In this document: one piece after another, positions 1 to 61,900 of the stretch | Position numbering within the stretch: the first letter of the stretch is position 1 | How the letters are laid out: each line of letters begins with the position of its first letter | Assembly (NCBI GenBank): GCA_963726745.1 | Contig: CAVSDR010000006.1 | Location: 64,001-128,000, forward strand | Length of the DNA: 64,000 bases | Source: an uncultured Verrucomicrobiae bacterium | GTDB lineage: Bacteria > Verrucomicrobiota > Verrucomicrobiia > Chthoniobacterales > UBA10450 | Direction of reading: 5' to 3' | Translations under genes and position numbers: made by a program | The notes under the pieces: generated by a model | The model's database searches: none | What the model saw: only the letters and a program-made list of their open reading frames with translations | What the model was told of the DNA's origin: nothing

Positions 1-650
1 TGCGCCTCGAGGTAGGGAATGATCTCGCGCCGCAGGCGGTTGCGCCGCGGGAGCAAGCTTTCGTTAGACCGATCCTCGCGGAACCGCAGCCCGTGCGCCG
101 CGATGTAGGCGTCGATCTCACTCCGCCAGGTCCCGAGCAGCGGCCGCACGATTTCCAGGGTTTGGCGGCCGACCTTCTGCCGCGCGACCGCGCGCATCCC
201 CCCGAGGCCCAGCGGACCGGCGCCGCGCAGGAGATTCATCAGGAAAGTCTCCGCGAGGTCGTCCGCGTGATGCGCCAGGAAAATTAGCCGGCACTTTCTC
301 CTGCGCGCTACTTCCGCAAAAAACTCCTGCCGCGCCCCGCGCGCCGCGGTTTCCAGCGATTCCTTCCGCTCCGCGGCCCGTGCCCGCACGTCGATTGTGG
401 CCGATTCGAACTCGCAGCCAAACTGAGCGGCCAGGCGCCCGACGAAACGCGCATCCGCCGCTGCGCTGCGGCCCCGCAGCCGATGATCGAGGTGGCAGAC
501 GACAAGCTTGCCGTAACCGCGCGCGCGCAGCGCATGGAGCAGCGCCACGGAATCGCGCCCGCCGGAGACCCCGATGAGATACCGGCGCGCCGGCGGGTAT
601 TCCGCGAGGATCGACGGCTCGCGCAGCAGCGGCGCATCCGGGGGCAACAT
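1..650 (-). CDS. tilS: tRNA(Ile)-lysidine synthetase, N-terminal part (runs off the window start)
   Basis: Manual translation of the minus strand from ATG 650: MLPPDAPLLREPSILAEYPPARRYLIGVSGGRDSVALL...LETAAR..R...LAHHADDLAETFLMNLLRGAG; PP-loop SGGxDS and HHxDD motifs. Not in the ORF track because it has no stop in the window. Confidence 0.93.
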   Translation of the reverse strand, partial: MLPPDAPLLREPSILAEYPPARRYLIGVSGGRDSVALLHALRARGYGKLVVCHLDHRLRGRSAAADARFVGRLAAQFGCEFESATIDVRARAAERKESLETAARGARQEFFAEVARRRKCRLIFLAHHADDLAETFLMNLLRGAGPLGLGGMRAVARQKVGRQTLEIVRPLLGTWRSEIDAYIAAHGLRFREDRSNESLLPRRNRLRREIIPYLEA

Positions 651-707
651 CGGAGCAGCAGGCCATCGCGCTTCCGCAGCGTCAAGCCACACGCGGCAAG
701 ATGTTGG

Positions 708-732
708 TTGACAATGAATGAACGTTCATTCA
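708..732 (+). promoter_or_regulatory. -35 element TTGACA followed by a perfect 18-bp palindrome TGAATGAACGTTCATTCA (probable TetR operator)
   Basis: TTGACA at 708-713, palindrome at 715-732, 14 nt upstream of the TetR-family ATG at 747. Confidence 0.8.
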
Positions 733-746: not shown

Positions 747-1367
747 ATGCCCGCGACCGCTGAACTTTCCACCGACCGTCGCGCGCAAATTCTCGCCGCG
801 GCCATGAAATGCTTTTCCCTGCGCGGCTTTCACCAGACGAGCATGCTCGACCTGAGCGCCGAGGCCGGGATCAGCGTCGGCCTGATCTATCGCTACTTCG
901 CGAGCAAGGAAGCCGTCATCGCCGCGATGGCGGAGGAGCACAAACGCGAGTTCGAGGAGTTGTTCGAGCGCGCCCAGACCGCGCCCACGGTGCTCGATTC
1001 GCTGGAAATTCTGCTCACCTCGCATTGCACCAAGGGCACCCCGCAAATGCACGCCGCTTTCGTGATCGACCTTTTCGCCGAAGCCGGGCGCAATCCGGCG
1101 ATCGCCGCTTCCGTGGGCGGAGTCCTCGAGACGCTCCGCCGCGGGATGACCGGGCTGGTCAGTCGCGTGCCGGAAATGCGCACTGCCGCCCACGGCCTGG
1201 AGCCGTCGGAAATTGCCGACCTCATCCTCGCGACCGCGCGCGGCTCGATGATGCGCGACGTGCTCGAGCGGCAAAACATCACGCTCGAAGAATGCCGGCA
1301 CCGGCAGCTGCGCGTCGTGCGCCATCTCTGGACGCTCCTCGCCCCGCCGCAGCCGGCTTTCGCCTAA
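747..1367 (+). CDS. TetR/AcrR family transcriptional regulator
   Basis: N-terminal HTH RRAQILAAAMKCFSLRGFHQTSMLDLSAEAGISVGLIYRYFASKE; first gene of an RND operon; start chosen at ATG 747. Confidence 0.93.
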   Translation: MPATAELSTDRRAQILAAAMKCFSLRGFHQTSMLDLSAEAGISVGLIYRYFASKEAVIAAMAEEHKREFEELFERAQTAPTVLDSLEILLTSHCTKGTPQMHAAFVIDLFAEAGRNPAIAASVGGVLETLRRGMTGLVSRVPEMRTAAHGLEPSEIADLILATARGSMMRDVLERQNITLEECRHRQLRVVRHLWTLLAPPQPAFA

Positions 1368-1381
1368 CGAATCTTTTTTTT

Positions 1382-2568: not shown

Positions 2569-5500
2569 GTGAAGACGTTTACCGATCTCTTCATTCGCCG
2601 GCCGGTGCTCGCACTGGTCGTTAGTCTGGTGATCATCATCGCCGGGGTGCAGGCGCTTTCCTCCCTCAACGTCCGGCAGTATCCGCGCAGCGACATCGCC
2701 TCGGTCACGGTTACGACCGCCTACGTCGGCGCGAGCGCGGAACTGGTGCGCGGCTTCATCACCACCCCGCTGGAGCGCGCGATCGCGGCCGCGGATGGAA
2801 TCGATTACCTCTCGTCGCAAAGCTCGCAGAGCGTCTCCACGATCACCGCGCGGCTGAAGCTGAATTACGATTCCAACAAAGCGCTGGCTGAGATCAGCTC
2901 GAAGGTAAACCAGGTCCGCGGCGATCTCCCGCCGGAAGCCGAGATCCCGGTGATCAACATCGAGTCGTCGGATTCGCAGTTCGCCTCCGCTTATCTCAGC
3001 TTCACCTCCGATCTGCTGCAGGCGAACGAGATCACCGATTACCTCAACCGCATCGTCCAGCCGCGCCTGACTGCGATCGCGGGCGTGCAACGCGCGGAAA
3101 TCCTCGGCGGCCGCACTTTCGCGATGCGCATTTGGCTCAAGCCCGACCGCATGGCGGCGCTCAACGTCAGCCCGGCGCAGGTGCGCAAAGCGCTGGGAAA
3201 TAATAATTACCTTGCCGCCCTCGGCCGCACCAAGGGCGCGCTGGTGCAGGTTGACCTCACGGCCAACACCGACCTGCACACGGTCGAGGATTTCAAGAAT
3301 CTCGTCGTGCGCGAGGAAGCCGGCGCGCTCGTCCGCATCGGCGACATCGCCGACGTCGTCCTGGGCGCGGAGGATTACAACTCCGAGGTCCGCTTCTCCG
3401 GGCAGCGCGCGGTCTTCATGGGCATCTTCGTGCTCCCGAATGCGAACGCGATCGACGTGGTCGCCCGCGTGCGCACGGAAATGGAGCAGATTCAGAAGGA
3501 ACTGCCGACCGGCATGAACGGCCGCATCGCCTACGACGGCACGGCCTACATCAACACCGCGATCAAGGACGTCTACCAGACGCTCGGCGAAACCTTGCTC
3601 ATCGTCTGCGTGGTCATCTTCCTCTTCCTGGGCTCATGGCGCTCCGCGATCATCCCGGTAATCGCGATTCCAATCTCGCTCATCGGCGCGGTTTTCCTGA
3701 TGCAGGTCTTCGGGTTCACGATCAATCTGCTCACGCTCCTCGCGGTCGTGCTCTCGGTCGGTCTGGTGGTCGATGACGCCATCGTCGTGGTGGAAAATGT
3801 CGAGCGCCATCTGCGCGATGGCTTGAGCTCGATCAACGCCGCTCTACTCGGCGCGCGCGAGCTCGTCGGACCGATCATTGCGATGACGATCACCCTCGCC
3901 GCGGTCTACGTGCCGATCGGGATCCAGGGCGGATTAACCGGCACTTTGTTCCGCGAATTTGCCTTTACCCTCGCCGGCGCGGTGACCATTTCCGGCGTGG
4001 TTGCGCTTACGCTTTCGCCGGTGATGACGGCAAAATTCCTCCGCCCAGGCGACGCCGAGCGCGGCTTCGCCCTGCGCGTAAATCGCGTCTTCGATCGCGT
4101 GCGCGATTGGTATGGCCGCAAGGTCGACGCCACCCTGCGTGTGCGGCCGGCGGTCTATACCGCGTGGATCGGGCTCTCGCTCATCGCGGTGATCATGTTC
4201 CTCCTCATGCCGAGCTTTGCTTCCAAAGAGCTCGCGCCCACCGAGGATCAGGGCGTCATTTTCGGCATCGTTCAAGCCTCCTCGAACGCCACGATCGAGC
4301 AGACTGCGGCGTTTGCGGATGCGGCCAATTCCGTTTTCCAGAGTTTCCCGGAGACCGCTTTCACTTTTCAAATCACCAGCCCGAGCGGTGGATTTGGCGG
4401 CATGGTCTTGAAACCATGGGACCAACGCAACCGCACCGCCTTCGAACTCCGGCCGCTGGTGCAGCAAAAACTCGGCAGCATCCCGGGGATCGAACTTTTC
4501 CCGATCATGCCTCCCGCTCTTCCCGGCGGCGGCAACTTTGGCGTCGAGTTCGTTATCCTCTCAACCGAGGAACCGGAGCGGATGGTCGAGCTCGCAAAGA
4601 AGCTCGAGGAAAAAGCGATGCAGGCCGGATTCTTCTTCACCACCATCGACACCAAGATCGACCAGCCCCAGGCCGAGGTGGTGATCGACCACGACAAGGT
4701 CGCCGCGCTTGGGCTCAACCTGCAGCAAATCGGCGCCGACATCTCCGCGATGTTTGGCGGCAATTTCGTTAACCGCTTCAACATTTCCGGCCGGGCCTAC
4801 AAGGTCATCCCGCAGGTCGAGCGAATCGAGCGCTTGAACCCCGATCAGCTCAAGGACATCTACGTCACCGGACCGAACGATCAGCTCATCCCCTTGAGCA
4901 CCGTCGCGAAGATCGAGAAGAAAACCGTCCCGCGTTCCCTTAGCCGCTTCAAGCAACTCAACGCGGTTACGATCAGCGGCGCCTCGCGCCTTCCGCTCGA
5001 CCAGGCGCTCAAGCTTTTCGAGGACGAAGCCGCGCGCATTTTGCCGAAGGGTTACTCGATTGATTACAAAGGCGAATCCCGCCAGCTCCGCGTCGAGGGC
5101 GACAAGTTCCTGCCCGCTTTCGGCCTCGCGGTCGTGCTGATTTTCCTCGTGCTCGCGGCGCAGTTTAACAGCTTCCGCGATCCGCTCATCATCCTTGCCG
5201 GCTCGGTCCCGCTGGCGCTCTTCGGCGCGATGATTTTCATGTTCCTGAAGCTGCCCAACCCGAACATGAAGTTTTTTACCGACAGCTTCACCACCACCTT
5301 CAACATCTACTCGCAGGTCGGCCTGGTCACCCTCGTCGGCCTGATCTCGAAGAACGCGATCTTGATCGTGGAATTTGCCAACCACTTGCAGGAGCAGGGT
5401 CGCACCAAGATCCAGGCGGTCGCCGAAGCTTCGCGCATTCGCTTGCGGCCGGTGCTCATGACCACCATCGCGACCGTCGCCGGTCACATGCCGTTGGTCT

Positions 5501-5724
5501 TCGTCACCGGCGCAGGCGCGAAGGCGCGTAATTCGATAGGCTTGGTTTTGGTCGGCGGCATGACCATCGGCACGCTCTTCACCCTCTTTATCGTCCCCTC
5601 GCTTTACGTCCTGATCGCGAAACAGCATCAAGCTGACGAACTCGGGACCGATCTCGATGGCGATAATGTAGGCGATGCGCAATCGCTCCCGGAATTCGCC
5701 CTGGCGAACAACGGCCGCGCCTAA
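2569..5724 (+). CDS. RND efflux permease subunit (MexW/MexI-like)
   Basis: 1051 aa; FIRRPVLA start, GLVVDDAIVVVEN, KNAILIVEFAN, RLRPVLMTT motifs. Confidence 0.96.
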   Translation: MKTFTDLFIRRPVLALVVSLVIIIAGVQALSSLNVRQYPRSDIASVTVTTAYVGASAELVRGFITTPLERAIAAADGIDYLSSQSSQSVSTITARLKLNYDSNKALAEISSKVNQVRGDLPPEAEIPVINIESSDSQFASAYLSFTSDLLQANEITDYLNRIVQPRLTAIAGVQRAEILGGRTFAMRIWLKPDRMAALNVSPAQVRKALGNNNYLAALGRTKGALVQVDLTANTDLHTVEDFKNLVVREEAGALVRIGDIADVVLGAEDYNSEVRFSGQRAVFMGIFVLPNANAIDVVARVRTEMEQIQKELPTGMNGRIAYDGTAYINTAIKDVYQTLGETLLIVCVVIFLFLGSWRSAIIPVIAIPISLIGAVFLMQVFGFTINLLTLLAVVLSVGLVVDDAIVVVENVERHLRDGLSSINAALLGARELVGPIIAMTITLAAVYVPIGIQGGLTGTLFREFAFTLAGAVTISGVVALTLSPVMTAKFLRPGDAERGFALRVNRVFDRVRDWYGRKVDATLRVRPAVYTAWIGLSLIAVIMFLLMPSFASKELAPTEDQGVIFGIVQASSNATIEQTAAFADAANSVFQSFPETAFTFQITSPSGGFGGMVLKPWDQRNRTAFELRPLVQQKLGSIPGIELFPIMPPALPGGGNFGVEFVILSTEEPERMVELAKKLEEKAMQAGFFFTTIDTKIDQPQAEVVIDHDKVAALGLNLQQIGADISAMFGGNFVNRFNISGRAYKVIPQVERIERLNPDQLKDIYVTGPNDQLIPLSTVAKIEKKTVPRSLSRFKQLNAVTISGASRLPLDQALKLFEDEAARILPKGYSIDYKGESRQLRVEGDKFLPAFGLAVVLIFLVLAAQFNSFRDPLIILAGSVPLALFGAMIFMFLKLPNPNMKFFTDSFTTTFNIYSQVGLVTLVGLISKNAILIVEFANHLQEQGRTKIQAVAEASRIRLRPVLMTTIATVAGHMPLVFVTGAGAKARNSIGLVLVGGMTIGTLFTLFIVPSLYVLIAKQHQADELGTDLDGDNVGDAQSLPEFALANNGRA

Positions 5725-6677
5725 CGAGTCCTTCCCGCGGGCAGTTCCACTTCCGTCCGCTTTACCGCGATCGCGTGTGAGCTCGGCTTTCCGCCAGCGC
5801 CGAAACGGTTCGCGTAAACCTGGGTAAACTCCGCGCCGAAGAGCAGGATCTGCGACGAGTAGTAGATCCAAAGCAAGAGCGTCACCAACGAGCTCGCCGC
5901 GCCGTAAGCCGAGCCGGCGGCGCCGCTCCCGAGATAGAGCCCGAGGGCCCACTTGCCCACGAGGAAGAGCAGCGCCGTCATCGTTGCGCCCACGATCACA
6001 TCCCGCCAGCGCACTTCCACATCGGGCAGATATTTGAACATCGCCGCGAAAAGGAAGACCACGATCCCGAGGTCAACCAGCAGGTAGATCGAGAGCGTGA
6101 CGACCACACCGCCGGGAAAGGTTTGCTCGAGGTAATGGCTCAAGCCCTTTAAGACCGCTTCAATAACCAGCGAGATCAGGAGGAGAAAACAAACGCCCGC
6201 GACCATCGCAAACGAGAGAAAGCGCCCCCGCAAAAAGGTCCCGAGCGCGCCGCCCGGCTTCGCTTTCACGCCCCAGATGGTGTTCAGCGCTTCTTGCAAT
6301 TGCCCGAAGACGCCGCTCGCGCCGAAGAGCGCCAGCGCGATCCCGATGATCGTGGCCCATCTTCCGCTGGCCGGTTTTGCGGCCGTGGCTGCGATGTCCT
6401 GGATCACCTTCACCCCGCTCGGATCGAGCACATTTCGCATCTGCTCCGTGATCCGCTCCCACGCGCCCGCGGGATCGTTCCGGAAGACCAGGCCCACGAT
6501 CGCGAGCAACACCAGGATCAGCGGCGCGAGCGAGAAGACGCTGTAGTAGGCCAGGGCCGCGCCGAGTTGCGGGGCTTTATCCTCGAGCCATTCGTTAAAG
6601 GTCTGCCGCAGCATGCTCCAGAGATGGCGCGGGCTGATCGTGCTCAAGAAGGAAGGCTCGGGTTTCGTTGGGTTCAC
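5721..6677 (-). CDS. YihY/virulence factor BrkB family membrane protein
   Basis: GAALAYYSVFSLAP, LQEALNTIW, YGAASSLVTLLLWIYYSSQILLFGAE motifs. Confidence 0.92.
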   Translation of the reverse strand: MNPTKPEPSFLSTISPRHLWSMLRQTFNEWLEDKAPQLGAALAYYSVFSLAPLILVLLAIVGLVFRNDPAGAWERITEQMRNVLDPSGVKVIQDIAATAAKPASGRWATIIGIALALFGASGVFGQLQEALNTIWGVKAKPGGALGTFLRGRFLSFAMVAGVCFLLLISLVIEAVLKGLSHYLEQTFPGGVVVTLSIYLLVDLGIVVFLFAAMFKYLPDVEVRWRDVIVGATMTALLFLVGKWALGLYLGSGAAGSAYGAASSLVTLLLWIYYSSQILLFGAEFTQVYANRFGAGGKPSSHAIAVKRTEVELPAGRTR

Positions 6678-6985: not shown

Positions 6986-8100
6986 CCGCGCGCGTAGATC
7001 GCCTCGTAAAGCGGCACAATTCGCTCCGCGGAAAAATGTGCCGCCGCGTGCGCCTGCCCCGCAGCGCCCATCGCCCGCGCGCGCTCTGGGGAATTAGCCA
7101 GCAAGCTCAGCGAGCGCGCCATCGGCTCGATGTCGCCTAACGAATGCAGGAAGCCGGTCGTCCCGTCCTGCATCACCTCGGGAATGCCGCCGACACGGAA
7201 GGCCACCACCGGCTTCGCGTAAAACATCGTCTCCAGGATACTCAAGCCAAAGCTCTCGCTCTCCGAGGTGTAAAGCCCGGCATCCGCGGCCGCGAGATAC
7301 TCTTCCACTTCCAGCACATTCTCCCGCACCAACAACGCCGCGCGCAGCCCCAACTCGTCGGCTAACGACTGGTAGGGCGCGAAGGAACCGCCCGCGAGAA
7401 CGAGCAGCCGCATCGGCGTTTCCTGCCGGGCCGCGGCGAAGACGCGCAGGAGCAGATCGATACGCTTCGGCGCCCGCAAATTGGAAACGTGCGTGACCAG
7501 GAATTCCCCTGGCCCGACACCCAACTCCGCGCGGACCGCGGCCGCGCTCCGGCGCGGCACCGTCGGCACGAAGAAATTCGGGATTACCTCCACCGGTTTC
7601 TGGAGGTCGAATGTGGTCAGCGTTTCCCTCCGCAAATCTTCCGAGACGGTCGTGATCGTGTCCGATTCCGTGAGCGCGTGCTCGATCGCCTCGCGATAAC
7701 TCGGGTCCTGCCCCAGCAGTGTCGTGTCCGTGCCGTGAAGGGTGGTCACGATCCGCGGCCGCTTCGCCGAATGCCGCGCCAGCATCTCGCGCGCAAGGTA
7801 GGCCGCGGTCGCATGCGGCACCGCGTAGTGCGCATGGAAAACATCCAGCCCTTTCTCCCGCGCCACGTGCGCCATCTTCACCGCCAGCGGCAGGGTGTAA
7901 TCGGGATAACGAAAGAGGCTGTACTCATTCACCGTCACCTCATGGAACGAGATCCCCGGCAGCGAGAGATCCAGCCGCACCGGCTTGGACGAGCTGAAGA
8001 AATCCACCTCATGCCCGCGGCGCGCGAGCTCATGCCCCAGCGCCGTCGCCAGGATCCCGCTCCCGCCGATCAGCGGATAACACACGATCCCGATCTTCAT
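6982..8100 (-). CDS. bshA: N-acetyl-alpha-D-glucosaminyl L-malate synthase (GT4)
   Basis: MKIGIVCYPLIGGSG start, HAHYAVPHA, TTLHGTD, HVSNLR..KR and ESFG motifs typical of BshA; directly downstream of a BshB-like gene. Confidence 0.88.
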   Translation of the reverse strand: MKIGIVCYPLIGGSGILATALGHELARRGHEVDFFSSSKPVRLDLSLPGISFHEVTVNEYSLFRYPDYTLPLAVKMAHVAREKGLDVFHAHYAVPHATAAYLAREMLARHSAKRPRIVTTLHGTDTTLLGQDPSYREAIEHALTESDTITTVSEDLRRETLTTFDLQKPVEVIPNFFVPTVPRRSAAAVRAELGVGPGEFLVTHVSNLRAPKRIDLLLRVFAAARQETPMRLLVLAGGSFAPYQSLADELGLRAALLVRENVLEVEEYLAAADAGLYTSESESFGLSILETMFYAKPVVAFRVGGIPEVMQDGTTGFLHSLGDIEPMARSLSLLANSPERARAMGAAGQAHAAAHFSAERIVPLYEAIYARG

Positions 8101-8813
8101 CAGTAGAGCCGCACCGTTGCGGGAATCTGCCCGAGATCGGCCACGAGAAAGTCTTCCGCGAGGAAGAGCGCCTGCGCGTATTCCACCCCTGCTTCCGCGC
8201 CGAGTAAACGCGCCCGCGCGGTCTGCAGCTCCACGTAAGCGCGGGTGCGTAACTGCGTCTGGTGGCACTCCATCAATTCGACCCACTTCTCGAAATGCTG
8301 GCTGATGTCCACCCGCACGCGCGCCCCGTCCCGCGGCTCGGCCGACGGCGTGACCGCATACTGAAAATGCTGGCTAATTCCGTGCGGTTCCAGCTCGCGC
8401 AATTCCGCCACGCCGCCGTAACGCGCCAGCCGCGCTGCGTCCCGCGCCAGCGCGCCGACCACTCGATGATCCGGGTGCTGCGCCACCGTGGTCACCGAGC
8501 TGAGCAAGATCTCCGGACGCGCCTGGCGAATCTCGCGCGCCAACCGCAAAGCATTCGCCGCGGTCGTCTCCATTTGCGCATCGCCGCCCAGATCGAGGAA
8601 GCGCATCTCCGCGCCTAACAAGTCCGCCGCCCGCCGCGCCTCCGCCTCCCGCTCGTCCGGCGTCCCGTTGCTCCCCGCTTCCCCGCGCGAGCAGAGACAG
8701 AGCGTGATCACCGTGCCGCGCGCCGCTTCCGCGAGCAGGATGCCGCCGCAAGCAAACTCGAGATCGTCGGGATGCGCGCCAATGGCGAGGAGGCGTTCAG
8801 GTTTCCGGGACAT
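8100..8813 (-). CDS. bshB1: PIG-L family deacetylase, BshB1-like
   Basis: GAHPDDLE, RGEAGSNGT..ER..EA and HPDH motifs; overlaps the bshA start by 1 nt. Confidence 0.8.
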   Translation of the reverse strand: MSRKPERLLAIGAHPDDLEFACGGILLAEAARGTVITLCLCSRGEAGSNGTPDEREAEARRAADLLGAEMRFLDLGGDAQMETTAANALRLAREIRQARPEILLSSVTTVAQHPDHRVVGALARDAARLARYGGVAELRELEPHGISQHFQYAVTPSAEPRDGARVRVDISQHFEKWVELMECHQTQLRTRAYVELQTARARLLGAEAGVEYAQALFLAEDFLVADLGQIPATVRLY

Positions 8814-13845: not shown

Positions 13846-13863
13846 GGAGGCAAGGCCCGGCGC

Positions 13864-17783: not shown

Positions 17784-18028
17784 ATTTGGTTTCGTTAGGC
17801 TAAGGCGGTTTTCGCGGGCCGATTGAGCGCGCTGGCTAATTCCCCGGAAGACTCCGTTCAATGCAGGGCGAAGCTGCCGCGTTCTCCGCTCCTGCGTTTT
17901 GGACCACGGCGGCTTGGCGACTGGGTGGCGCCGGGTTGGGCGCGCAAATTTCAGCCAGGAAACGCGGCCGCGCGGAGAGAATCATGGCGCGGTGTTTAGC
18001 TACGCCCGGCAGGCCTGACAAGAGAAAA

Positions 18029-24821: not shown

Positions 24822-24830
24822 CCTGCGCGC

Positions 24831-33283: not shown

Positions 33284-33304
33284 GCAACAAGTTGCCGGCT
33301 AAAA

Positions 33305-48822: not shown

Positions 48823-48825
48823 CGG

Positions 48826-49752: not shown

Positions 49753-50361
49753 CTAAATCTGCCGCCGGCCTGAAAGCGCCTGGTAAAGCGTGAGCTCGTC
49801 GGCTGATTCCAAACCGCCGCCTGCGGGCAAGCCGTGAGCGATCCGGGTGAGCTTGACCGGGAAGCGCTTGAGCAGGTCGACGAGATAGTTCGTGGTCGCC
49901 TCCCCTTCCACGTCGGCCGCGAGCGCGAGGATCACTTCCGCAAACGACTCGCGCTCGAGCCGCGCGACCAGTTCATTGATCCGCAAATCCTCCGGGCCCA
50001 CGTGATCCAGCGGCGAGATCCTGCCGCCTAACGAATGGTAGCGCCCGCGGAAAGCGCTCGTTTTCTCGAGCGGGAGAATGTCGGTCGGCTGCTCGACCAC
50101 GCAAAGGAGGTCGGGGATGCGGATCGGGTCGGTGCAGATCTCGCAGAGCTCGGCTTCCATGGTGAAAAAGCCGCACTGCACGCAGGGCCGCACGCTCGCG
50201 CGCGTCTGCGCGATCGCGGCCGCGATCTCCTCCGGGCGGGCGGTTTTAGCCTGCACCATCCAGAGCGCAATGCGCTCCGCCGAGCGCGGGCCGACGCCGG
50301 GCATCTGGCGCAGGTGGGCGATTAACTCCCGGATCGCGACCGGATACTCGATCTTCCTCAA
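49753..50361 (-). CDS. recR: recombination mediator RecR
   Basis: PGVGPRSAER HhH, CxxC..CxxC zinc finger, Toprim VEGEAT..Y, TRIAHGLP; start codon uncertain. Confidence 0.95.
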   Translation of the reverse strand: MRKIEYPVAIRELIAHLRQMPGVGPRSAERIALWMVQAKTARPEEIAAAIAQTRASVRPCVQCGFFTMEAELCEICTDPIRIPDLLCVVEQPTDILPLEKTSAFRGRYHSLGGRISPLDHVGPEDLRINELVARLERESFAEVILALAADVEGEATTNYLVDLLKRFPVKLTRIAHGLPAGGGLESADELTLYQALSGRRQI

Positions 50362-53318: not shown

Positions 53319-55625
<2,307 letters not shown>

Positions 55626-55629
<4 letters not shown>

Positions 55630-55963: not shown

Positions 55964-56308
55964 ATGTCGCGTCGGCTAACGACTGGTCTGCTCCTTCTGG
56001 TGGCGTTGCTTTTGGCGCCGCTCCAGGGACCGGTGCAGGCCTGTGCCATGAGCACGACGCCGGTGGCGCAGAGTGCGGAATGCCCTTGCTGCGCGACGAT
56101 GAAGTCGTGCGTTTTGCCGCAACAAAATCCTGCCGACACGAGCACTGCTCCAGCGGTGCAAACGGTCGCAATCGTGCTCGCCGCCCCGGCGGCGACGGTC
56201 TTGTTGCAGGAGCTTCTGGCCTCTCCGGCTGACTTCACGGCGGCGACGCCGGTGGTGCTTTCCGCGGGTCCTTCGCGCCTCGCGGTCCTCTGCACTTTCC
56301 TCATCTGA
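55964..56308 (+). CDS. Cys-rich small exported protein upstream of the metal efflux operon (DUF2946-like)
   Basis: Signal/TM segment, ACAM..ECPCC..KSC, Pro/Ala-rich linker, terminal RLAVLCTFLI. Confidence 0.65.
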   Translation: MSRRLTTGLLLLVALLLAPLQGPVQACAMSTTPVAQSAECPCCATMKSCVLPQQNPADTSTAPAVQTVAIVLAAPAATVLLQELLASPADFTAATPVVLSAGPSRLAVLCTFLI

Positions 56309-56389: not shown

Positions 56390-57661
56390 ATGAAGAAACT
56401 ATCCCTATTCCTACTACTACTCGTTAGCCAAAGCAGCCACGCCGCCGAGACACTTTCCCTTGAGGAAGCGACCCGGAAAGCGCTGGCTAATTATGCCGGG
56501 CTTCGTGCGGCGCACGCGAAGTGGGAGGCGATGAAGGCGCGCGTCCCGCAGGCCGCCGCCTGGGAGGACCCGATGGTGGGCGTCGACTTTGAGCGGCGCG
56601 AGACCACGCGCTTTGACACCTACAGCGACGCCGAGTGGATGCTCTCGCAAAAGCTTCCGCTGGCGGGGAAAAATCGCAGCCGCGCCCGCGCCGCCGAGGC
56701 CGAAGCGCGCGCGACGCTCGATGAATATCGCCGGCAACAGCTCGACCTGGTGGCGAAGGTGCGCGCGGCCTATTTCCGCTGGTTGAATGCGACTGCGCAG
56801 CTCGACGTGAACCAGCGCAACGATGCGCTGCTCGCGCAATTCTTCGAGATCAGTCGCGCGAAGTATTCCGTGGGCACGCAGACCCAGGGGAGCCTCTTGC
56901 TCGCGGAAACGGACCTGATTCGCCTCCAGGAAGAACGCCGCGCGCTCGAGCGCGAACTCTCCGATGCGCAGTCGGCGCTCAATGTCCTGATGAATCGCCC
57001 GGCCCGCACGGCGCTCGGCCAGCCGGTGGAGGTAAACGTGCGGCCGCTCCGCTTCAATGCCGGCAAGCTCGAGGCGCTCGCGCTGCAATTTCGCCCGGAG
57101 CTGCACCTGGCCGCGAACCGCATCGCCGCCGAGGAGCAGCGGTTGCAGGCGGCGAAACGCGATTGGATTCCGGAGCCGCAGGTGCGCGTGGAAGCGCGTT
57201 CCTTCAAGGGCTCAGGTCGCGGCTTCAACGAATATGACACCGGCGTGTTCTTCAACGTGCCGCTGGGGAACGTGGGCAAATATCGCGCGCAGGAACGCGA
57301 GGCGCGCAGCAGTCTCGAGCAGGCCCAGGCCGAGCTGGAAAACGCGCGCACGGAAACGCTCGGCCTGGTGCGCGACGCACTTGCCAAAGTCGAGACCTAT
57401 CGCCATCACGTGGAGCTCTTCCGCGACCAGCTCCTCCCGCTCACCGCGCAATCGGTCGAGACCAGCCGCAACGGCTACGAGACGGACAAGTCGAGCTTCC
57501 TCGAGTTGATCACCGCGCAGCGCACCCTGCGCGACACCGACGCGACGTATCTTCGCCATCTCGCTGACTACCGCATTGCCCTGGCCGAACTCGAAGCGGT
57601 CGTGGGCGTGGACCTGCAGATTTTCCCAACCTTCCGCCTAACGACTGATTCCTCCAAATGA
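56390..57661 (+). CDS. TolC family outer-membrane efflux protein (CusC/CzcC-like)
   Basis: Signal peptide, OEP helical repeats, GYETDKSSFLELITAQ; first gene of the cusBA-like operon. Confidence 0.9.
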   Translation: MKKLSLFLLLLVSQSSHAAETLSLEEATRKALANYAGLRAAHAKWEAMKARVPQAAAWEDPMVGVDFERRETTRFDTYSDAEWMLSQKLPLAGKNRSRARAAEAEARATLDEYRRQQLDLVAKVRAAYFRWLNATAQLDVNQRNDALLAQFFEISRAKYSVGTQTQGSLLLAETDLIRLQEERRALERELSDAQSALNVLMNRPARTALGQPVEVNVRPLRFNAGKLEALALQFRPELHLAANRIAAEEQRLQAAKRDWIPEPQVRVEARSFKGSGRGFNEYDTGVFFNVPLGNVGKYRAQEREARSSLEQAQAELENARTETLGLVRDALAKVETYRHHVELFRDQLLPLTAQSVETSRNGYETDKSSFLELITAQRTLRDTDATYLRHLADYRIALAELEAVVGVDLQIFPTFRLTTDSSK

Positions 57662-58912
57662 ACTCGCTCCGCCTCCTTCTCGTCGTCCTTCTCCTGGCCA
57701 CCCTCGGCTGCCACCGGAGCACGCCGCCAAAAACAGACAGCAACATCGATTACTACACCTGCAGCATGCATCCCTCGGTGCACGCCTCGGAGATGGGGAA
57801 GTGCCCGATTTGCGGGATGGATTTGGTCCCGGTGCTGAAACGCGGGGCCGCCGCCAGCGCCGACCGCTCCGACGGCCAACGCGCCTAACGAGTTCAGCGT
57901 CCCGGTGGAACGCCAGCAGCAGATCGGCGTGACCTATGCCCCGGTCGAGCGCCGCGCGCTCGAGCACACGATTCGCGCAGTCGGCATGGTCGAGCCGGAC
58001 TCGACCCGCCGCTGGAGTTTCGTCTCCCGGGTCAACGGCTACGTCGAGAAGCTCTTCGTCACCTCGCCGGGCGAGATCGTGGAAAAAAACGCGCCGCTCC
58101 TTTCGATCTACAGCCCGGACCTGCTGACCACGGAGCGCGAACTCGTTTCCGTCTTTAAGATGCGCGACGACGCGCGCTCGCCCGCGGCGCGCGCCACGGC
58201 GCAACGCTTGATCGAGGCCGCGCGGTCGCGCCTGGAACAGTGGAACGTGACTGCGGAGCAGATCGCAGCCCTGGAAAAGAGCCGGCAACCTTCCGAGTTC
58301 CTGACCCTCCAGTCGCCCTTCCGCGGGATTGTCGAGCGCGTCGCGGCGCAACAGGGCGCCAGCGTAAAACCGGGCGACGCGCTGGTCGAAATCGCCGATC
58401 TCTCGGTCGTCTGGGTGTGGGCCGAGTTCTACGAGAACGAGCTGCGCATGCTTCAGCAGGAACAGGAGCTCGCCCTCACGACCGCTTCTTATCCCGGAGA
58501 AAATTTTGCCGGCAAGATCGCGGTGATCAATCCGTTCATCGACCCGGCGAAACGCACCGCAAAAGTCCGGATCGACATCGCCAACCCCGACTTCAAGCTC
58601 CGCCCCGGCATGTTCATGAACGCCGAGCTCGCGATGGCCATGGGCGAGGGCCTGACCGTGCCCGTGAGCGCGATCATGCCCACCGGCTCGCGCAACATCG
58701 TTTTCGTCGATCAAGGCGACGGCAAACTCGAGCCGCGCCTGGTCGAGCTGGGCGAAAAATACGGCGAGCGCTACGAAGTCCGCCGCGGCCTCCAGGAAGG
58801 CGAGCGCGTGGTCGCGAGCGCGAACTTTTTGATCGATGCCGAAGCCAAAGTGCAAGGCGCGCTCAAAGCCTTCGAAGCCCCCGCGCCCAGCCCGGAGGAG
58901 GCGCAGCCGTGA
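57658..58912 (+). CDS. cusB: CusB-like membrane fusion protein (frameshift near 57870)
   Basis: YYTCSMHPS..CPICGMDLVP, then QQIGV, IYSPDL, LRPGMF, ERVVASANFLIDAE. Confidence 0.85.
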
Positions 58913-61900
58913 TCGAAAAGCTGATCGACTGGAGCGCGCGGAACAGGTTCCTCGTCATCGTCTTTACCCTCTTCGCGTTTGCCGGCGGGCTTTACGCGCT
59001 CCGGCACACCCCGCTCGATGCCATCCCGGATCTGAGCGATGTGCAGGTGATCGTTTACACCGATTGGGAAGGGCGCTCGCCCGACCTGATCGAGGACCAG
59101 ATTACCTACCCGATCACGTCGCGTTTCATCGCCGCGCCAAAGGTGAAATTTGTCCGTGGCGAATCGATGTTCGGGAAGTCCTTCGTCTACGTTATTTTCG
59201 AGGACGGGACGGATATCTACTGGGCGCGCTCGCGCGTGATCGAATACTTAAGCTCGGTCCGCGGCTCGCTGCCGGAAGGGGTCAATCCGGTCATCGGTCC
59301 CGACGCCACGGGAGTCGGCTGGGTTTACGAGTACGCGCTGGTCGACGAGACCGGGAAGCAAAGCCTGGCGGACCTGCGTTCCTTCCAGGATTGGAATCTG
59401 CGCTACGCCCTCGAGTCGGTGAAGGGCGTCGCCGAAGTCGCGGCCGTGGGCGGCTTCGTGAAGCAATACCAGATCGATCTCGATCCGAACAAACTCGCGG
59501 CTTACGGCATTACGCTGAGCGACCTCGTCGCACGCGTGAAAGCGAGCAACGGCGACGTCGGCGGCAAAGTCTTCGAAGTCGCGACCACGGAGTATTACGT
59601 GCGCGGCCGCGGCTACATCAAAAGCGTGGACGACATCGAGAATATCGTCCTCAAGGTCGACAACGGCACGCCGGTCTACGTGCGCAATGTCGGGACCGTC
59701 CACCTCGGCGGCGACCTCCGGCGCGGGGTCGCGGAGTTGAATGGCCGGGGCGAAGTCGTGGGCGGGATCGTGGTCATGCGCTACGGCGAAAACGCGCTCG
59801 AAGTAATCGATGGCGTGAAGCGTAAACTCGCCGAAGTGCAGTCGTCGCTCCCGGAGGGCGTGCGCGTCGTGCCCACTTATGACCGCAGCGAGCTGATCAA
59901 GCACGCGATCAAAACGCTGCGCGAAAAGTTGATCGAGGAAAGCATCGTAGTCGCGCTCGTTTGCATCCTTTTCCTCTGGCACGTGCGCTCGGCGCTGGTC
60001 GCGATCATCACCCTGCCGATCGCGATCGTGCTCGCGTTTTTGCCGATGCTGCAGCTGGGATTAACCAGCAACATCATGTCGTTAGGCGGCATCGCCATTG
60101 CCATCGGCGCGATGGTCGACGCTGCAATCATCATGGTGGAAAACGCGCACAAGGCGCTGGAGCATTTCCGGGACGAGCACGGGCGCGAACCCGATAATCG
60201 CGAGCGCGTGGAAGCGATCATCGGCGCGGCAAAATCAGTCGGCCGGCCACTCTTTTTCTCGCTCCTCGTGATCACCGTGAGCTTCATCCCGGTCTTCTCG
60301 CTGACCGCGCAGGAAGGCCGGCTTTTCAAGCCGCTGGCTTACACCAAGACCTTCTCGATGTTCTTCGCCGCGCTCCTCGGCGTGACCTTGGTGCCGGTGC
60401 TGATGACGCTGCTTATCCGCGGCAAGATCACGCCGGAATTTCGAAATCCGGTGAACCGCTTCCTCATTTGGGTCTACCGCCCGGCGGTCGATTTCGTTCT
60501 TCGTTTTCGCTGGCTCACGCTTCTGAGCGCGCTGGTTATTTTACTGCTCACGCTCATTCCTTTCAGCCGCCTCGGCTCGGAGTTCATGCCGCCGTTAAAC
60601 GAAGGCACGATCCTCTACATGCCGACCGCAGTGCCGGGGATGTCGATCAACGAAGCGACCAAAATCCTCCAGATCCAGGACCGGCAACTGAAAAAGATTC
60701 CCGAGGTCCTGACCGTCTTCGGGAAGGCCGGGCAGGCCGACACTTCGACCGATCCCGCGCCGCTCTCGATGTTCGAGACCGTGATCACGCTCCGCCCGCC
60801 TAACGAGTGGAGACCGGGGATGACCTGGGAAAAAATCCTCGAGGAGATGAACGCAATCAAGACTCCTGGGATGGCGAATATCTTCTGGATGCCGATCCAG
60901 ACGCGCACGGAAATGCTCACCACCGGCTTCCGCACTTCGTTAGGCATCAAGGTCTTCGGCGACGACCTCGGGACGATCGAGGAAGTCGCGGTGCAAATCG
61001 AGAAAGCGCTGGCTGATTTTCCAGACACCCGGAGCGTCTTCGCCGAGCGGACCACGGGCGGTTACTTTCTCGACTTCACGGTCAACCGTGAAGCAGCCGC
61101 GCGCTACGGCCTGACCGTGGGCGACGTGAACGACGTCATCGAAACCGCGATCGGCGGCAAGACGATCACGACCACCGTGGAAGGGCGCGAACGCTACCCG
61201 GTGAACGCGCGTTACGCGCGCGATTTTCGCCAGAACCTCGATAGCCTGAAGCGCGTGCTTGTCCCCACCCCGACCGGCGCGCAGGTGCCGATCTCCCTCC
61301 TCGCGAAGATCGAATACAAAACCGGCCCGCCCTCGATCCGGAACGAGAACGGCAAGCTCGTCGGCTTTGTCTTCGTCGACCCGGCCACGAGCGACATCGA
61401 AGGCTACGTGCGCGCGGCGGCGCAGCGGATCCAGGAGCGGGTGAAATTTCCCGCCGGCTATTACATCGAGTGGGCCGGGCAATTCCAATACCTCAAGGCG
61501 GCGGAAAAGCGGCTGCAATTAGTCATCCCTTTCACCCTCCTGATCATCTTCGTGCTCCTTTACCTGAATACGAAGTCGGTCGCGAAAACCGCGATCGTCC
61601 TGCTCGCGGTCCCCTTCTCGTTAGTCGGCGCTTTCTGGCTGATCTACTTGTTAGGCTACAACATGAGCGTGGCCGTCTGGGTGGGCTTGATCGCGCTCGC
61701 CGGGCTCGATGCCGAGACCGGCGTGATCATGCTCCTCTACCTTGACCACGCCTGGGAAAAACGCCGCGCGGAGGGTCGCATGAACTCGTTAGCCGACCTC
61801 CAGGCGGCGGTGCGCGCAGGCGCGGTCGAGCGGATTCGTCCGAAGATCATGACCGTTTGCGCCATCCTCTTCGGGCTCCTGCCGATCATGTGGTCGCCCG

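What the first reader, a model, noticed from the sequence alone, without database searches (positions are those of the whole stretch)
61..61794. Highly iterated non-palindromic motif GCCTAACGA written into coding sequence: candidate DNA-uptake or chromosome-organising signal
Seen: 25 exact copies (15 forward, 10 reverse), plus single-mismatch variants TCGTTAGCC/GGCTAACGA (10: 7360, 11519, 14402, 23880, 24815, 48824, 54411, 55974, 56421, 61786), TCGTTAGTC/GACTAACGA (4: 2618, 41908, 43919, 61618), TTGTTAGGC/GCCTAACAA (5) and three singletons (61, 11558, 25393). That is about one site per 1.4 kb. A zero-order estimate at an assumed 65% GC gives about 0.4 exact copies for both strands. Most copies lie inside unrelated genes, in different frames (TCG-TTA-GGC = S-L-G, CCT-AAC-GAG = P-N-E, CTA-ACG = L-T), and often force TTA/CTA codons that are otherwise rare here, so protein sequence does not explain them. 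Established: Neisseria DUS and Pasteurellaceae USS show this pattern (9-10-mer, both strands, about 1 per kb, intragenic), whereas Chi and KOPS are strand-polarised and HIP1 is palindromic. Inference: a sequence-specific uptake signal or a binding site for an abundant DNA-binding protein. I know of no such motif described for Verrucomicrobia.
Basis: partly seen in the sequence, partly recalled or inferred. Interest (0 to 1): 0.92.

Follow-up and report, generated by a model that had tools for sequence, protein, structure and literature searches.

The report
Hyper-abundant genome-wide 9-mer in soil Verrucomicrobia
An uncultured soil bacterium and its whole family carry thousands of copies of one short DNA word written even into their genes, much like the self-recognition tags that a few bacteria use to take up kin DNA, and the word matches the end of the lineage's integron recombination sites.

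Summary
The genome holds 1312 copies on all 7 contigs. That is about 60-80x over Markov models, 260x over a motif-masked model and about 45x over synonymous-codon shuffles.

The motif has no strand polarity and distorts codon and amino-acid usage. It is depleted in low-GC polysaccharide islands. It is conserved at orthologous sites far above its flanks.

It is enriched across most of one Chthoniobacterales family (Ca. Udaeobacter relatives, about 30 genera, up to 4633 copies). It is not enriched in 16 genomes of other families of the order.

Three new facts:
- Sister genera carry a second unrelated motif, TTGTCGATCTTG.
- This species carries a third, about GCYGGCTAAWTT.
- GCCTAACGAG is the R''-box end of the lineage's integron attC sites, yet motif density does not follow integron integrase.

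Best reading (0.4): a DUS/USS/HIP1-like signal linked to DNA uptake or transformation and kept up by molecular drive. The function is untested. No paper found describes it. Earlier notes of this scan report similar motifs on other Verrucomicrobia DNA.

The parts
1362..1370 (+). exact GCCTAACGA, intergenic/uncalled
5719..5727 (+). exact GCCTAACGA, intergenic/uncalled
7135..7143 (+). exact copy, antisense phase 0 (TCG TTA GGC = S-L-G) in ORF 6982-8286 (-)
10218..10226 (-). exact copy, sense phase 1 (P-N-D/E) in ORF 9568-11250 (-)
11371..11379 (+). exact copy, antisense phase 0 (S-L-G) in ORF 11359-13845 (-)
12835..12843 (+). exact copy, antisense phase 0 (S-L-G) in ORF 11359-13845 (-)
13862..13870 (+). 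exact copy, intergenic/uncalled
17792..17800 (-). exact copy, intergenic/uncalled
19075..19083 (-). exact copy, sense phase 2 (L-T) in ORF 18030-19604 (-)
28173..28181 (-). exact copy, antisense phase 0 (S-L-G) in ORF 27438-28220 (+)
28214..28222 (-). exact copy at an ORF boundary; direct pair with 28173 (41 bp apart)
29546..29554 (+). exact copy, sense phase 1 in ORF 28327-30135 (+)
33277..33285 (-). exact copy, intergenic/uncalled
43458..43466 (+). exact copy, intergenic/uncalled
45414..45422 (+). exact copy, sense phase 2 in ORF 45397-46335 (+)
46127..46135 (+). exact copy, sense phase 1 in ORF 45397-46335 (+)
50026..50034 (+). exact copy, antisense phase 0 (S-L-G) in ORF 49753-50361 (-)
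51420..51428 (+). exact copy, antisense phase 0 (S-L-G) in ORF 50370-51611 (-)
54267..54275 (-). exact copy, antisense phase 0 (S-L-G) in ORF 53319-54692 (+)
55486..55494 (-). exact copy, antisense phase 0 (S-L-G) in ORF 54526-55629 (+)
57636..57644 (+). exact copy, sense phase 1 in ORF 56333-57661 (+)
57883..57891 (+). exact copy, intergenic/uncalled
60079..60087 (-). exact copy, antisense phase 0 (S-L-G) in ORF 58240-62079 (+)
60798..60806 (+). exact copy, sense phase 2 in ORF 58240-62079 (+)
60937..60945 (-). exact copy, antisense phase 0 (S-L-G) in ORF 58240-62079 (+)
61..69 (-). tolerated variant GTCTAACGA (position 2)
2618..2626 (-). tolerated variant GACTAACGA
7360..7368 (+). tolerated variant GGCTAACGA
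8613..8621 (+). enriched variant GCCTAACAA (position 8 G>A)
11519..11527 (-). variant GGCTAACGA
11558..11566 (-). variant CCCTAACGA
14402..14410 (-). variant GGCTAACGA
21978..21986 (-). variant GCCTAACAA
23316..23324 (-). variant GCCTAACAA
23880..23888 (-). variant GGCTAACGA
24815..24823 (-). variant GGCTAACGA
25393..25401 (+). variant ACCTAACGA
41908..41916 (-). variant GACTAACGA
43919..43927 (+). variant GACTAACGA
48824..48832 (+). variant GGCTAACGA
54009..54017 (-). variant GCCTAACAA
54411..54419 (-). variant GGCTAACGA
55974..55982 (+). variant GGCTAACGA
56421..56429 (-). variant GGCTAACGA
61618..61626 (-). variant GACTAACGA
61648..61656 (-). variant GCCTAACAA
61786..61794 (-). variant GGCTAACGA

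Best explanation
GCCTAACGA (fuller footprint nGCCTAACGAGTnnT, invariant core CTAACGA) is a DNA-level signal on double-stranded DNA. A sequence-specific molecular drive has written it across the genomes of one Chthoniobacterales family. The most likely reader is the DNA-uptake/transformation pathway, as for Neisseria DUS, Pasteurellaceae USS and, as recently proposed, cyanobacterial HIP1. In that model, fragments from kin that carry the word are bound preferentially outside the cell. They are pulled in through a secretin by a type IV pilus-like or type II secretion-like fibre, enter as single strands through ComEC, are loaded by DprA and recombine. Alleles that carry the word are over-sampled, so mutations that create it spread even at a cost in codons and amino acids. 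The word decays where the preference is lost. SHOWN: hyper-abundance, the imprint on codons and amino acids, lack of polarity, clade limits, site conservation, decay in some species, depletion in islands, identity to the attC end, and presence of ComEC, DprA, pilus and secretin genes.
For: Abundance: 1312 copies against 16-24 (Markov order 0-3) or 5.1 (motif-masked model). 944 copies in CDS against 15-29 in 20 synonymous-codon shuffles.

DNA-level writing: 432 of 732 S-L-G tripeptides are coded TCGTTAGGC (4.1 expected). S-L-G occurs 732 times against 405-528 for its five permutations. P-N-E occurs 230 times against 96 expected. All stop-free frames on both gene strands are used. The flank preferences (+9 G, +10 T, +13 T) are the same in genic and intergenic copies.

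No polarity: strand heterogeneity over 50-kb bins gives chi2 72.0 on 69 df, p 0.38. Spearman rho with GC skew is -0.04.

Intergenic excess: 376 of 1312 copies lie in about 17% of the genome.

Clade limits: 24 of 24 same-genus genomes are enriched (138-2412 copies against reversed-pattern controls of 30-118). 16 of 16 genomes of other families of the order are not (1-19 copies). Across 200 family genomes in 30 genera, counts reach 4633 in 4.3 Mb.

Site conservation against flanks: G013 30 of 65 motif sites identical against 9 and 7 of 65 flanking 9-mers. G192, a different genus, 14 of 26 against 2 and 2. Motif-poor G002 1 of 33 against 3 and 3, which looks like decay.

Depletion in atypical DNA: 0-0.9 copies per 10 kb below 60% GC against 4.8 at 64-66% GC. 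The two largest deserts (35 and 24 kb) are polysaccharide/O-antigen clusters.

Machinery: full-length ComEC, DprA, a PilM..secretin cluster, a GspD-type secretin with its ATPase, a pseudopilin/minor-pilin cluster, and 14 prepilin-like ORFs found by regex.

Precedent: DUS/USS are enriched in the core genome and absent from recently acquired genes (passages). HIP1 raises transformation efficiency and has been proposed as an uptake sequence (abstracts).
Against: No uptake experiment exists and the organisms are uncultured.

No ComP_DUS-type receptor was found (best 21.9 bits against a cut-off of 27.3).

No convincing ComEA was found. TIGR00426 scores 15.4 bits at best. There is only one HhH motif, at 29.3 bits, in a doubtful 95-aa frame.

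Only 2 inverted pairs within 60 bp occur among 1312 copies, and close pairs are depleted (11 against 50 expected below 100 bp). About half of DUS/USS sit in terminators.

Uptake genes do not track motif density. ComEC is found in 191 of 201 family genomes, including genera without enrichment. The pseudopilin cluster is conserved in motif-poor G002, G019 and G016.

The family holds further unrelated hyper-abundant motifs. They sometimes share one genome (G062: 1803 of motif A and 2561 of motif B). One is nearly species-specific (motif C: 479 in G000, 127 in G015, 34 or fewer in the 22 other genus members). This is unknown for DUS/USS.

The identity to the attC R'' box points to a link with a recombination site that uptake does not by itself explain.

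GC skew in this genome is weak, so the polarity test rests mainly on the homogeneity of the bins.
Confidence: 0.4

Rival explanations
1. A drive based on methylation or mismatch repair, as in Elhai's model for cyanobacterial HIP1. A sequence-specific methyltransferase or nickase marks the word, and biased repair converts near-matches into it. No role in uptake is needed.
For: Specificities that change fast, coexist and are patchy (motif A family-wide, B in some genera, C nearly species-specific) resemble restriction-modification or methyltransferase repertoires. G000 encodes a PF01555 DNA methylase, an HsdM-like gene and an Eco57I-like N6 methylase that is 86-99% identical between species and patchy. 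The enrichment is of HIP1 size (15-300x, abstract). The enriched variant GCCTAACAA is the CpG-transition product.
Against: The two methylases tested do not follow density. The PF01555 gene is found in 28 of 31 genus genomes, including motif-poor G002. The Eco57I-like gene is intact in low-density G022, absent or fragmentary in high-density G024, and present in G018, which lacks motif C. My regex over the ORF calls found no C5-methylase signature (crude). The motifs are not palindromes. One-off variants at core positions 3-7 sit at background rather than being depleted.
Confidence: 0.15
2. The copies are sites for an integron integrase or another tyrosine recombinase. They would be double-stranded R-box sites (G|TTAGGC) that serve as genomic landing sites (attG-like), or that are kept up by recombinase activity.
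For: GCCTAACGAG equals the R'' box (RYYYAAC) plus the first three spacer bases of the attC units of G000's own cassette array and of those in G028, G013, G093, G192, G068, G062, G081 and G044. The units fold as attC-type hairpins, z -2.9 to -3.6. Integron integrase is common in the order: 21 of 41 genomes score above the curated cut-off. Integrases insert cassettes at double-stranded genome sites with a GWT core (passages).
Against: G000 has no integron integrase (best 80 bits against a cut-off of 265) although its copies are conserved. High-density G024 and G010 also lack it, while low-density G016, G005, G019 and G021 have it. Orthologous comparisons show substitutions inside conserved genes, not insertions or scars. 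No partner box lies nearby, since pairs are depleted. Known integrase chemistry restores the target on excision and gives no way to write the word (my inference). The R'-side form GCCTAACCA has only 23 copies, and the attC-type extension GCCTAACGAGAA has 46 against 321 for GCCTAACGAGT.
Confidence: 0.1
3. Binding sites of an abundant nucleoid-associated or chromosome-organising protein, kept by selection on each site, as Xu et al. proposed for HIP1.
For: Sites are conserved above their flanks between genera. Both strands are used, and spacing is fairly even with a deficit of close pairs. A footprint of about 14 bp is shared by genic and intergenic copies.
Against: Density varies 15-fold among species of one genus and the word decays fully in some (G002), which is odd for a core architectural system. 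Selection on thousands of single sites strong enough to change amino acids is hard to sustain without a drive (inference). No candidate protein was identified.
Confidence: 0.12
4. A recombination or self-protection signal of the Chi type, read by a RecBCD/AddAB-like enzyme.
For: Chi words are short, lineage-specific and over-represented. HIP1 has been suggested to act partly like Chi (abstract). Motif C begins with GCTGG, as E. coli Chi does (recalled).
Against: There is no strand polarity in any 50-kb bin (chi2 p 0.38). The enrichment (60-260x) is far above what I recall for Chi. I did not search for RecBCD or AddAB.
Confidence: 0.05

Closest known systems
USS of Pasteurellaceae and DUS of Neisseriaceae (DNA uptake enhancing sequences)
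   Same: A non-palindromic word with a 9-12 nt core. More than 1000 copies per genome, about one per 1-3 kb. Both strands are equal. Copies lie inside genes in every stop-free frame, with biased codons and tripeptides. There is an intergenic excess, conservation at family level, depletion in acquired DNA and conservation at orthologous sites.
   Different: A different phylum and an unrelated sequence. There are almost no inverted pairs or terminator copies (2 of 1312). No ComP-type receptor or clear ComEA was detected. Unrelated second and third motifs exist in the family, sometimes in one genome. The word coincides with an integron attC end. Uptake is untested.
HIP1 (GCGATCGC) of cyanobacteria
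   Same: Hyper-abundance of 15-300x, presence in genes, conservation between genomes, lineages with alternative motifs, and an unsettled function now linked to transformation.
   Different: HIP1 is a palindrome with known cognate methylases. Here the words are asymmetric, and the two methylases tested do not track density.
Integron attC R'' box / core site (RYYYAAC / GTTRRRY) and attG genome sites
   Same: GCCTAAC fits RYYYAAC, and its complement GTTAGGC fits GTTRRRY. The 10-mer GCCTAACGAG is the consensus 5' end of the attC units of this order.
   Different: About 99% of copies are solitary and double-stranded, lie inside conserved genes and have no L box or partner arm. Density is unrelated to the presence of integron integrase.
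Chi, KOPS and other architecture-imparting sequences
   Same: Short, lineage-specific, over-represented words.
   Different: Those are strand-polarised with respect to replication. This word is not.

Membership tests
DNA uptake sequences (DUS/USS) | Genome-wide hyper-abundance of one 9-12-mer far above compositional and codon-aware expectation | tested here: met
   1312 copies against 5-24 expected; 944 in CDS against 15-29 in codon shuffles
DNA uptake sequences (DUS/USS) | Both orientations equal, no replichore polarity | tested here: met
   681 forward and 631 reverse; bin heterogeneity p 0.38; rho with GC skew -0.04. GC skew is weak.
DNA uptake sequences (DUS/USS) | Restricted to one family, with related dialects | tested here: inconclusive
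   Family-restricted. The other motifs found (TTGTCGATCTTG, GCYGGCTAAWTT) are unrelated words rather than dialects, and they coexist.
DNA uptake sequences (DUS/USS) | Many copies as inverted pairs in transcription terminators | tested here: not met
   2 inverted pairs within 60 bp; 11 gaps under 100 bp against 50 expected
DNA uptake sequences (DUS/USS) | Depleted in recently acquired DNA | tested here: met
   Density falls to 0-0.9 per 10 kb below 60% GC; the deserts are polysaccharide clusters
DNA uptake sequences (DUS/USS) | A specific receptor (ComP minor pilin; predicted ComN/PpdA) | tested here: not met
   PF16732 best 21.9 bits, below the cut-off. Generic minor pilins are present.
DNA uptake sequences (DUS/USS) | Complete competence machinery | tested here: inconclusive
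   ComEC, DprA, secretins, PilM, ATPases and pilins are present. ComEA was not convincingly found. The genome is 94.7% complete.
DNA uptake sequences (DUS/USS) | The word raises uptake or transformation | not testable with these tools
   Uncultured organisms; no experiment available
HIP1-type highly iterated palindromes | Palindromic word | tested here: not met
   GCCTAACGA differs from its reverse complement TCGTTAGGC
HIP1-type highly iterated palindromes | A cognate methyltransferase co-occurs with abundance | tested here: inconclusive
   The two methylases tested do not co-vary. The HsdM-like gene was not tested. No methylation data.
Chi / KOPS polar motifs | Strand bias relative to replication | tested here: not met
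Integron attC site | R'' RYYYAAC, L'', L', R' GTTRRRY arranged as an imperfect hairpin of about 60-140 nt, in same-strand arrays | tested here: not met
   Met only by about 14-17 units at G000 C6:736.5-744.8 kb. The other roughly 2000 CTAACGA copies are solitary.
Integron attC site | A neighbouring integron integrase | tested here: not met
   No TIGR02249 match above the cut-off in G000; the array lacks a neighbouring integrase (a CALIN)
REP / MITE / longer dispersed repeat | Conserved flanks beyond the core | tested here: not met
   No conservation beyond +13 or upstream of the core

The most novel reading that the evidence does not exclude
Cells of this family would then preferentially import cassette arrays released by kin. 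These arrive as single strands that fold into attC and can be captured. As a by-product, the uptake drive wrote the attC end thousands of times into the core genome. New specificities (TTGTCGATCTTG, GCYGGCTAAWTT) arise repeatedly and act as lineage barcodes for gene flow among co-occurring soil Verrucomicrobia.
Probability: 0.15. Interest if true: 0.95.

Novelty: new variant of a known kind. Interest (0 to 1): 0.85.

Why it matters
Sequence-specific self-recognition tags for DNA uptake are established in only two proteobacterial families, and HIP1 of cyanobacteria is a recent candidate. A comparable signal in the Ca. Udaeobacter family would bear on gene flow and species barriers in organisms that cannot be grown. 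From my own knowledge, this family is among the most abundant soil bacteria and none has been cultured.

The signal has practical uses. It can serve for binning, for detecting horizontally acquired DNA, and for designing DNA that such cells might accept.

Three features also give a natural system for asking how hyper-abundant genome words arise and die:
- several unrelated words coexist in the family;
- density differs 15-fold among congeners;
- the word is identical to an integron attC end.

That question is still open for HIP1 after 30 years.

Tried and rejected
- **A longer repeat or mobile element:** rejected, because the flanks are unconserved.
- **Protein, codon or RNA-level cause:** rejected, because of the codon shuffles, use of both gene strands and use of all stop-free frames.
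- **Chi/KOPS polarity:** rejected.
- **Artefact of one contig or one assembly:** rejected. All 7 contigs carry the word, and so do about 200 genomes from many sources.
- **'One-off variants are depleted':** my first table suggested this. The motif-masked model showed it was an artefact of a background inflated by the motif itself.
- **Dialect replacement in low-count congeners:** not seen. G002 has the same word at 16x and no alternative.
- **ComEC presence against motif density:** uninformative, 191 of 201.
- **Pseudopilin cluster presence against density:** uninformative.
- **Two methylases against density:** no correlation.
- **Integron integrase against density:** no correlation.
- **Motif B as the L'' box of attC in B-rich genera:** not supported. 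Their attC arms keep CAAGAT[C/G]AGC. The 34 adjacent A-B composites in G062 exceed my rough chance estimate of about 7 but are dispersed.
- **Two other enriched words in relatives:** GGCCGTGTTG in G068 and CGTACAGTTC in G093 are tandem arrays with periods of about 51 and 147 bp at contig ends. They are not dispersed motifs.
- **ORFs through the attC units:** the translations look non-coding.
- **A script error:** my first attC-finding script returned nothing because its stem criterion was too strict. It was replaced by a signature regex.
- **Tools left unused:** sequencing-run, structure and complex tools, because none bears on the open question.

Full report
**1. The observation**

The window is G000:C6:64001-128000 of a 3,406,779-bp assembly in 7 contigs. 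It holds 25 exact GCCTAACGA, 15 on the + strand and 10 on the - strand, at the coordinates given. Dinucleotide-preserving shuffles give 0.30 on average and never more than 2.

Allowing one mismatch gives 53 sites against 11.6 expected. It also holds six unlisted sites of types that are at background genome-wide (background).

17 of the 25 exact copies fall in my ORF calls and 8 are intergenic or uncalled. Of the 17, 10 read TCG-TTA-GGC (S-L-G) on the coding strand, 4 read xxG-CCT-AAC-GAx and 3 read xGC-CTA-ACG-Axx. My gene calls are crude: ORFs of 80 aa or more, chosen by the excess of GC3 over GC2, 2642 ORFs covering 83% of the genome.

**2. Genome-wide statistics**

- **Count.** The word occurs 1312 times (681 forward, 631 reverse) on all seven contigs, one per 1.9-3.1 kb. 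It is the second most frequent 9-mer of the genome.
- **Expectation.** Markov models of order 0-3 expect 16-24. A model built after masking all near-matches expects 5.1.
- **Codon shuffles.** Shuffling synonymous codons within each gene leaves 15-29 copies in 20 trials, against 944 observed in coding sequence.
- **Core and tolerated positions.** The invariant core is CTAACGA, with 2025 copies; 73% of all CTAAC pentamers are followed by GA. Positions 1 and 2 and the G>A change at position 8 are tolerated. Variants at positions 3-7 sit at background.
- **Flanks.** G at +9 (0.62), T at +10 (0.43) and T at +13 (0.37) are preferred equally in genic and intergenic copies. Nothing further is conserved. 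The word stands alone with a footprint of about 14 bp. It is not part of a longer repeat.

**3. It is written at the DNA level and costs the proteome**

- TTA makes up 2.9% of leucine codons, yet 432 of 732 S-L-G tripeptides are coded TCGTTAGGC, where codon usage predicts 4.1.
- S-L-G itself occurs 732 times, against 405-528 for its five permutations.
- P-N-E occurs 230 times against 96 expected from composition, and 169 of these are coded CCTAACGA (all).
- Both gene strands and all four stop-free frames are used; the two remaining frames would create TAA or TAG.
- Intergenic or boundary copies are 376 of 1312, in about 17% of the sequence.

**4. No polarity**

Forward and reverse counts in 50-kb bins fit a single binomial (chi2 72.0, 69 df, p 0.38). 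They do not correlate with GC skew (rho -0.04) or with gene strand (rho 0.04). GC skew is weak here, so the homogeneity of the bins is the stronger argument.

Copies closer than 100 bp are depleted (11 against 50 expected under Poisson). Only 2 inverted pairs lie within 60 bp.

**5. Where it is missing**

Density rises with GC: 0 per 10 kb below 58%, 0.89 at 58-60% and 4.8 at 64-66%. The two longest gaps are C7:60.0-95.4 kb (GC 0.593) and C6:413.7-437.8 kb (GC 0.60). Both encode glycosyltransferases, DegT aminotransferases, Wzy/Wzz, ABC transport and an exosortase. These are polysaccharide clusters of the kind that are commonly exchanged (the last point is established knowledge).

**6. Clade distribution**

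The titles of the closest public records name MAGs of Chthoniobacterales, Verrucomicrobiota and Candidatus Udaeobacter.

- All 24 sampled genomes of the genus are enriched, at 138-2412 copies against reversed-pattern controls of 30-118.
- All 16 genomes from 15 other families of the order are not enriched, at 1-19 copies, below their controls.
- Among 200 family genomes in 30 genera, the word is strongly enriched in several genera. Examples are g37 with up to 4633 copies in 4.3 Mb, and g18, g30, g38 and g19.
- It is near control level in g21, g35 and g44.
- Counts from genomes flagged unpublished (G001, G008, G045, G155, G208, G227) appear in those tables. No statement here depends on them.

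**7. Evolution of sites**

I aligned sampled DNA of relatives to G000 with blastn. Overall nucleotide identity was 71-76%.

| Relative | Kind | G000 motif sites identical in relative | Left flank 9-mer identical | Right flank 9-mer identical |
|---|---|---|---|---|
| G013 | same genus, motif-rich | 30 of 65 | 9 of 65 | 7 of 65 |
| G192 | another genus, motif-rich | 14 of 26 | 2 of 26 | 2 of 26 |
| G002 | same genus, motif-poor | 1 of 33 | 3 of 33 | 3 of 33 |

(All.)

Where the relative lacks the word it usually differs at 3-6 of 9 bases and encodes a similar tripeptide such as A-L-G, T-L-G, S-L-x or A-F-G. Sites therefore arise by substitution inside conserved genes. They are held where the process is active and decay where it is not. 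G002 has no replacement word; GCCTAACGA is still 16x enriched there.

**8. More than one word**

- **Motif B.** G068 (g44) lacks the enrichment but carries a different stand-alone word, TTGTCGATCTTG: 20 forward and 24 reverse in 154 kb, with unconserved flanks. Searched as TGTCGATCTTG in 111 family genomes, it reaches 2561 copies in G062. The reversed control gives 0-2 everywhere.
  - Other counts are 1583 in G044, 809 in G081, 693 in G047 and 399 in G068.
  - It is rare in g1, g37, g18 and g28; G000 has 11.
  - G062 also holds 1803 GCCTAACGA, so the two words can share a genome.
- **Motif C.** After masking motif A, G000 shows a third word with consensus about CAAnTTGC[C/T]GGCTAAWTT.
  - GGCTAAWT occurs 629 times (324 forward, 305 reverse; 181 intergenic).
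  - TTAGCCAGC occurs 440 times against 9.5 expected.
  - Its core GCTGGCTAA has 479 copies in G000, 127 in G015 and 6-34 in the other 22 genus genomes, at or below control.
  - Its sites are also substitutions relative to orthologs.
  - Like A, it places the rare TTA codon, and it shares G[G/C]CTAA with A.

**9. The integron link**

That led me to look for local clustering.

- **The array in G000.** The densest place in G000 is C6:736.5-745.3 kb (GC 0.60). It holds 14-16 same-strand copies of a unit of about 125 nt, spaced 470-920 bp.
- **Unit structure.** Each unit reads [G/A][C/T]CTAAC-GAGAA-CAAGAT[C/G]AGCGAC...GTTCGCT[G/C]CATCGC-ATG-GTTAG[G/A][C/T].
  - GCCTAAC fits RYYYAAC and GTTAGGC fits GTTRRRY, the consensus boxes of attC sites. 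I recalled those consensus strings; both occur in integron papers listed, of which I saw only the listing.
  - As single strands, two of three tested units fold into the expected imperfect hairpin: paired ends, an unpaired spacer and a bulged inner stem. All three have z between -2.9 and -3.6.
  - ORFs read through the units look non-coding.
- **The same attC type elsewhere.** It forms arrays in G028, which belongs to another family. There, the listed GCCTAACGA copies (19 in all) lie mostly in such arrays. It also occurs in G013 and G093, and in G192 (71 pattern matches), G068, G062, G081 and G044.
- **What this means for motif A.** Integron integrase scores above the curated cut-off in 21 of 41 relatives. 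GCCTAACGAG is thus the R'' end of the order's attC sites, and that end exists without genome-wide enrichment outside the family.
  - My rough estimate is that a random 9-mer fits RYYYAAC at some offset and strand with probability of about 0.6%. The further GA(G) match makes coincidence unlikely.
  - Only about 14-17 of the 2025 CTAACGA copies in G000 lie in attC units.
  - The attC-type extension GCCTAACGAGAA has 46 copies against 321 for GCCTAACGAGT. The R'-side form GCCTAACCA has 23.
- **Integrase does not track density.** G000 has no integron integrase (best 80 bits, Xer-like). High-density G024 and G010 also have no match above the cut-off, while low-density G016, G005, G019 and G021 do.
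  - Motif B is not the L'' box of attC in B-rich genera.

**10. Candidate readers**

- **Uptake machinery found in G000.**
  - a full-length ComEC (DUF4131 + Competence + Lactamase_B);
  - DprA;
  - a PilM...TPR...secretin cluster;
  - a GspD-type secretin next to a T2SSE/MshEN ATPase;
  - a cluster with T2SSE, three small pilin-like ORFs, T2SSK, T2SSG and T2SSF;
  - 14 prepilin-like ORFs found by regex.
- **How much this shows.** These genes are common in bacteria (10-11 of 14 control genomes), so they show capacity and nothing more specific.
- **Receptor and ComEA.** No ComP_DUS match passes the cut-off. ComEA is doubtful: one HhH motif at 29.3 bits in a 95-aa frame that overlaps a transglycosylase gene, and TIGR00426 at 15.4 bits.
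- **No tracking of density.** ComEC is found in 191 of 201 family genomes whatever the motif density. The pseudopilin cluster is conserved in motif-poor genomes.
- **DNA methylases.** G000 has a PF01555 gene, an HsdM-like gene and an Eco57I-like gene.
  - The PF01555 gene is in 28 of 31 genus genomes, including G002.
  - The Eco57I-like gene is patchy and 86-99% identical between species, but unrelated to the density of A or C.

**11. Reading**

The data require a process that acts on double-stranded DNA, is blind to strand and frame, favours one exact word strongly enough to override codon and amino-acid preference, needs time to act on newly arrived DNA, can be lost, and can take new specificities.

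Preferential uptake of word-bearing kin DNA followed by recombination is the one mechanism experimentally established for such patterns (DUS/USS). HIP1 is now linked to transformation too (abstracts). I therefore rank uptake first, at 0.4.

The points against it are in section 10, together with the lack of terminator pairs and the coexistence of unrelated words. The attC identity is not explained by classical uptake.

The rivals are a methylation or repair drive (0.15), nucleoid-protein sites (0.12), recombinase sites (0.1) and a Chi-like signal (0.05). The rest is unknown.

**12. Novelty**

- Full-text searches for the word and its complement found only primers and oligonucleotides.
- Searches for uptake sequences with Verrucomicrobia, for Udaeobacter with competence and for new uptake sequences found nothing on this.
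- Recent DUS/USS work treats only Neisseriaceae and Pasteurellaceae (passages).
- A search on integrons, attC and Verrucomicrobia listed general integron surveys only (listing).
- I did not open supplementary files. A table in a k-mer survey or an integron survey could mention these genomes.
- Earlier notes of this scan, which are unchecked AI notes, describe an uptake-like 9-mer, a 31-bp motif and CTAAC islands in other soil Verrucomicrobia. The scan has therefore met this phenomenon before on other DNA.

Noticed in passing
G000 C6:736300-745300 (outside the window; locus L227:3300-12300): An integron cassette array without a neighbouring integrase: 14-16 attC units of about 125 nt, all on one strand, spaced 470-920 bp, in a 60% GC region. 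The cassette ORFs were not annotated.
   Followed up: partly
window 282, 7092, 8372, 15415, 17834, 18959, 37786, 48380, 56485, 63679 (GGCTAAWT); 25 sites match G[CT][CT]GGCTAA: A third hyper-abundant motif, about CAAnTTGC[C/T]GGCTAAWTT. G000 holds 629 GGCTAAWT. The motif is almost confined to this species and G015.
   Followed up: partly
family genomes G062, G084, G099, G044, G081, G047, G068 and others: A second stand-alone motif, TTGTCGATCTTG, with up to 2561 copies per genome in sister genera. It is sometimes found together with GCCTAACGA. G000 has 11 copies and the window none.
   Followed up: partly
G000 C1:5034-5241; C3:731564-731815 and 82903; C4:146654-146838; C6:313567-313708 and 1027450-1027651: At five or more loci, runs of (GGAGTC)n lie next to runs of (GCCAAC)n. 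This is a composite tandem-hexamer element of unknown nature.
   Followed up: no
G000 C6:484-1458; also G018:C7:491, G015:C16:487, G140, G013, G226, G022: An Eco57I-like N6 DNA methylase gene that is 86-99% identical between species whose genomes are about 75% identical. It often starts about 485 bp from a contig end. It is probably part of a recently spreading mobile element that breaks assemblies.
   Followed up: no
G000 C3:981068-982042: A PF01555 N6/N4 DNA methylase conserved in 28 of 31 genus genomes. It behaves like a core orphan methylase.
   Followed up: partly
G068 L069, L071, L075 and G093 L053, L056 (contig ends): Tandem arrays with periods of about 51 bp (G068) and about 147 bp (G093) at contig ends. 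They are unrelated to the dispersed motifs.
   Followed up: no
G062 (34 places): Dispersed composites CTAACGA-N(3-9)-CAAGATCGAC, with motif A next to the complement of motif B in a fixed order. This is about five times my rough chance estimate. The order recalls the R''-spacer-L'' layout of the attC arm.
   Followed up: partly
G000 C2:230151-230438 (L196:10151-10438 +): A 95-aa frame with a single ComEA-like helix-hairpin-helix motif that overlaps a transglycosylase gene on the other strand. It may be a remnant or a mis-called small gene.
   Followed up: partly
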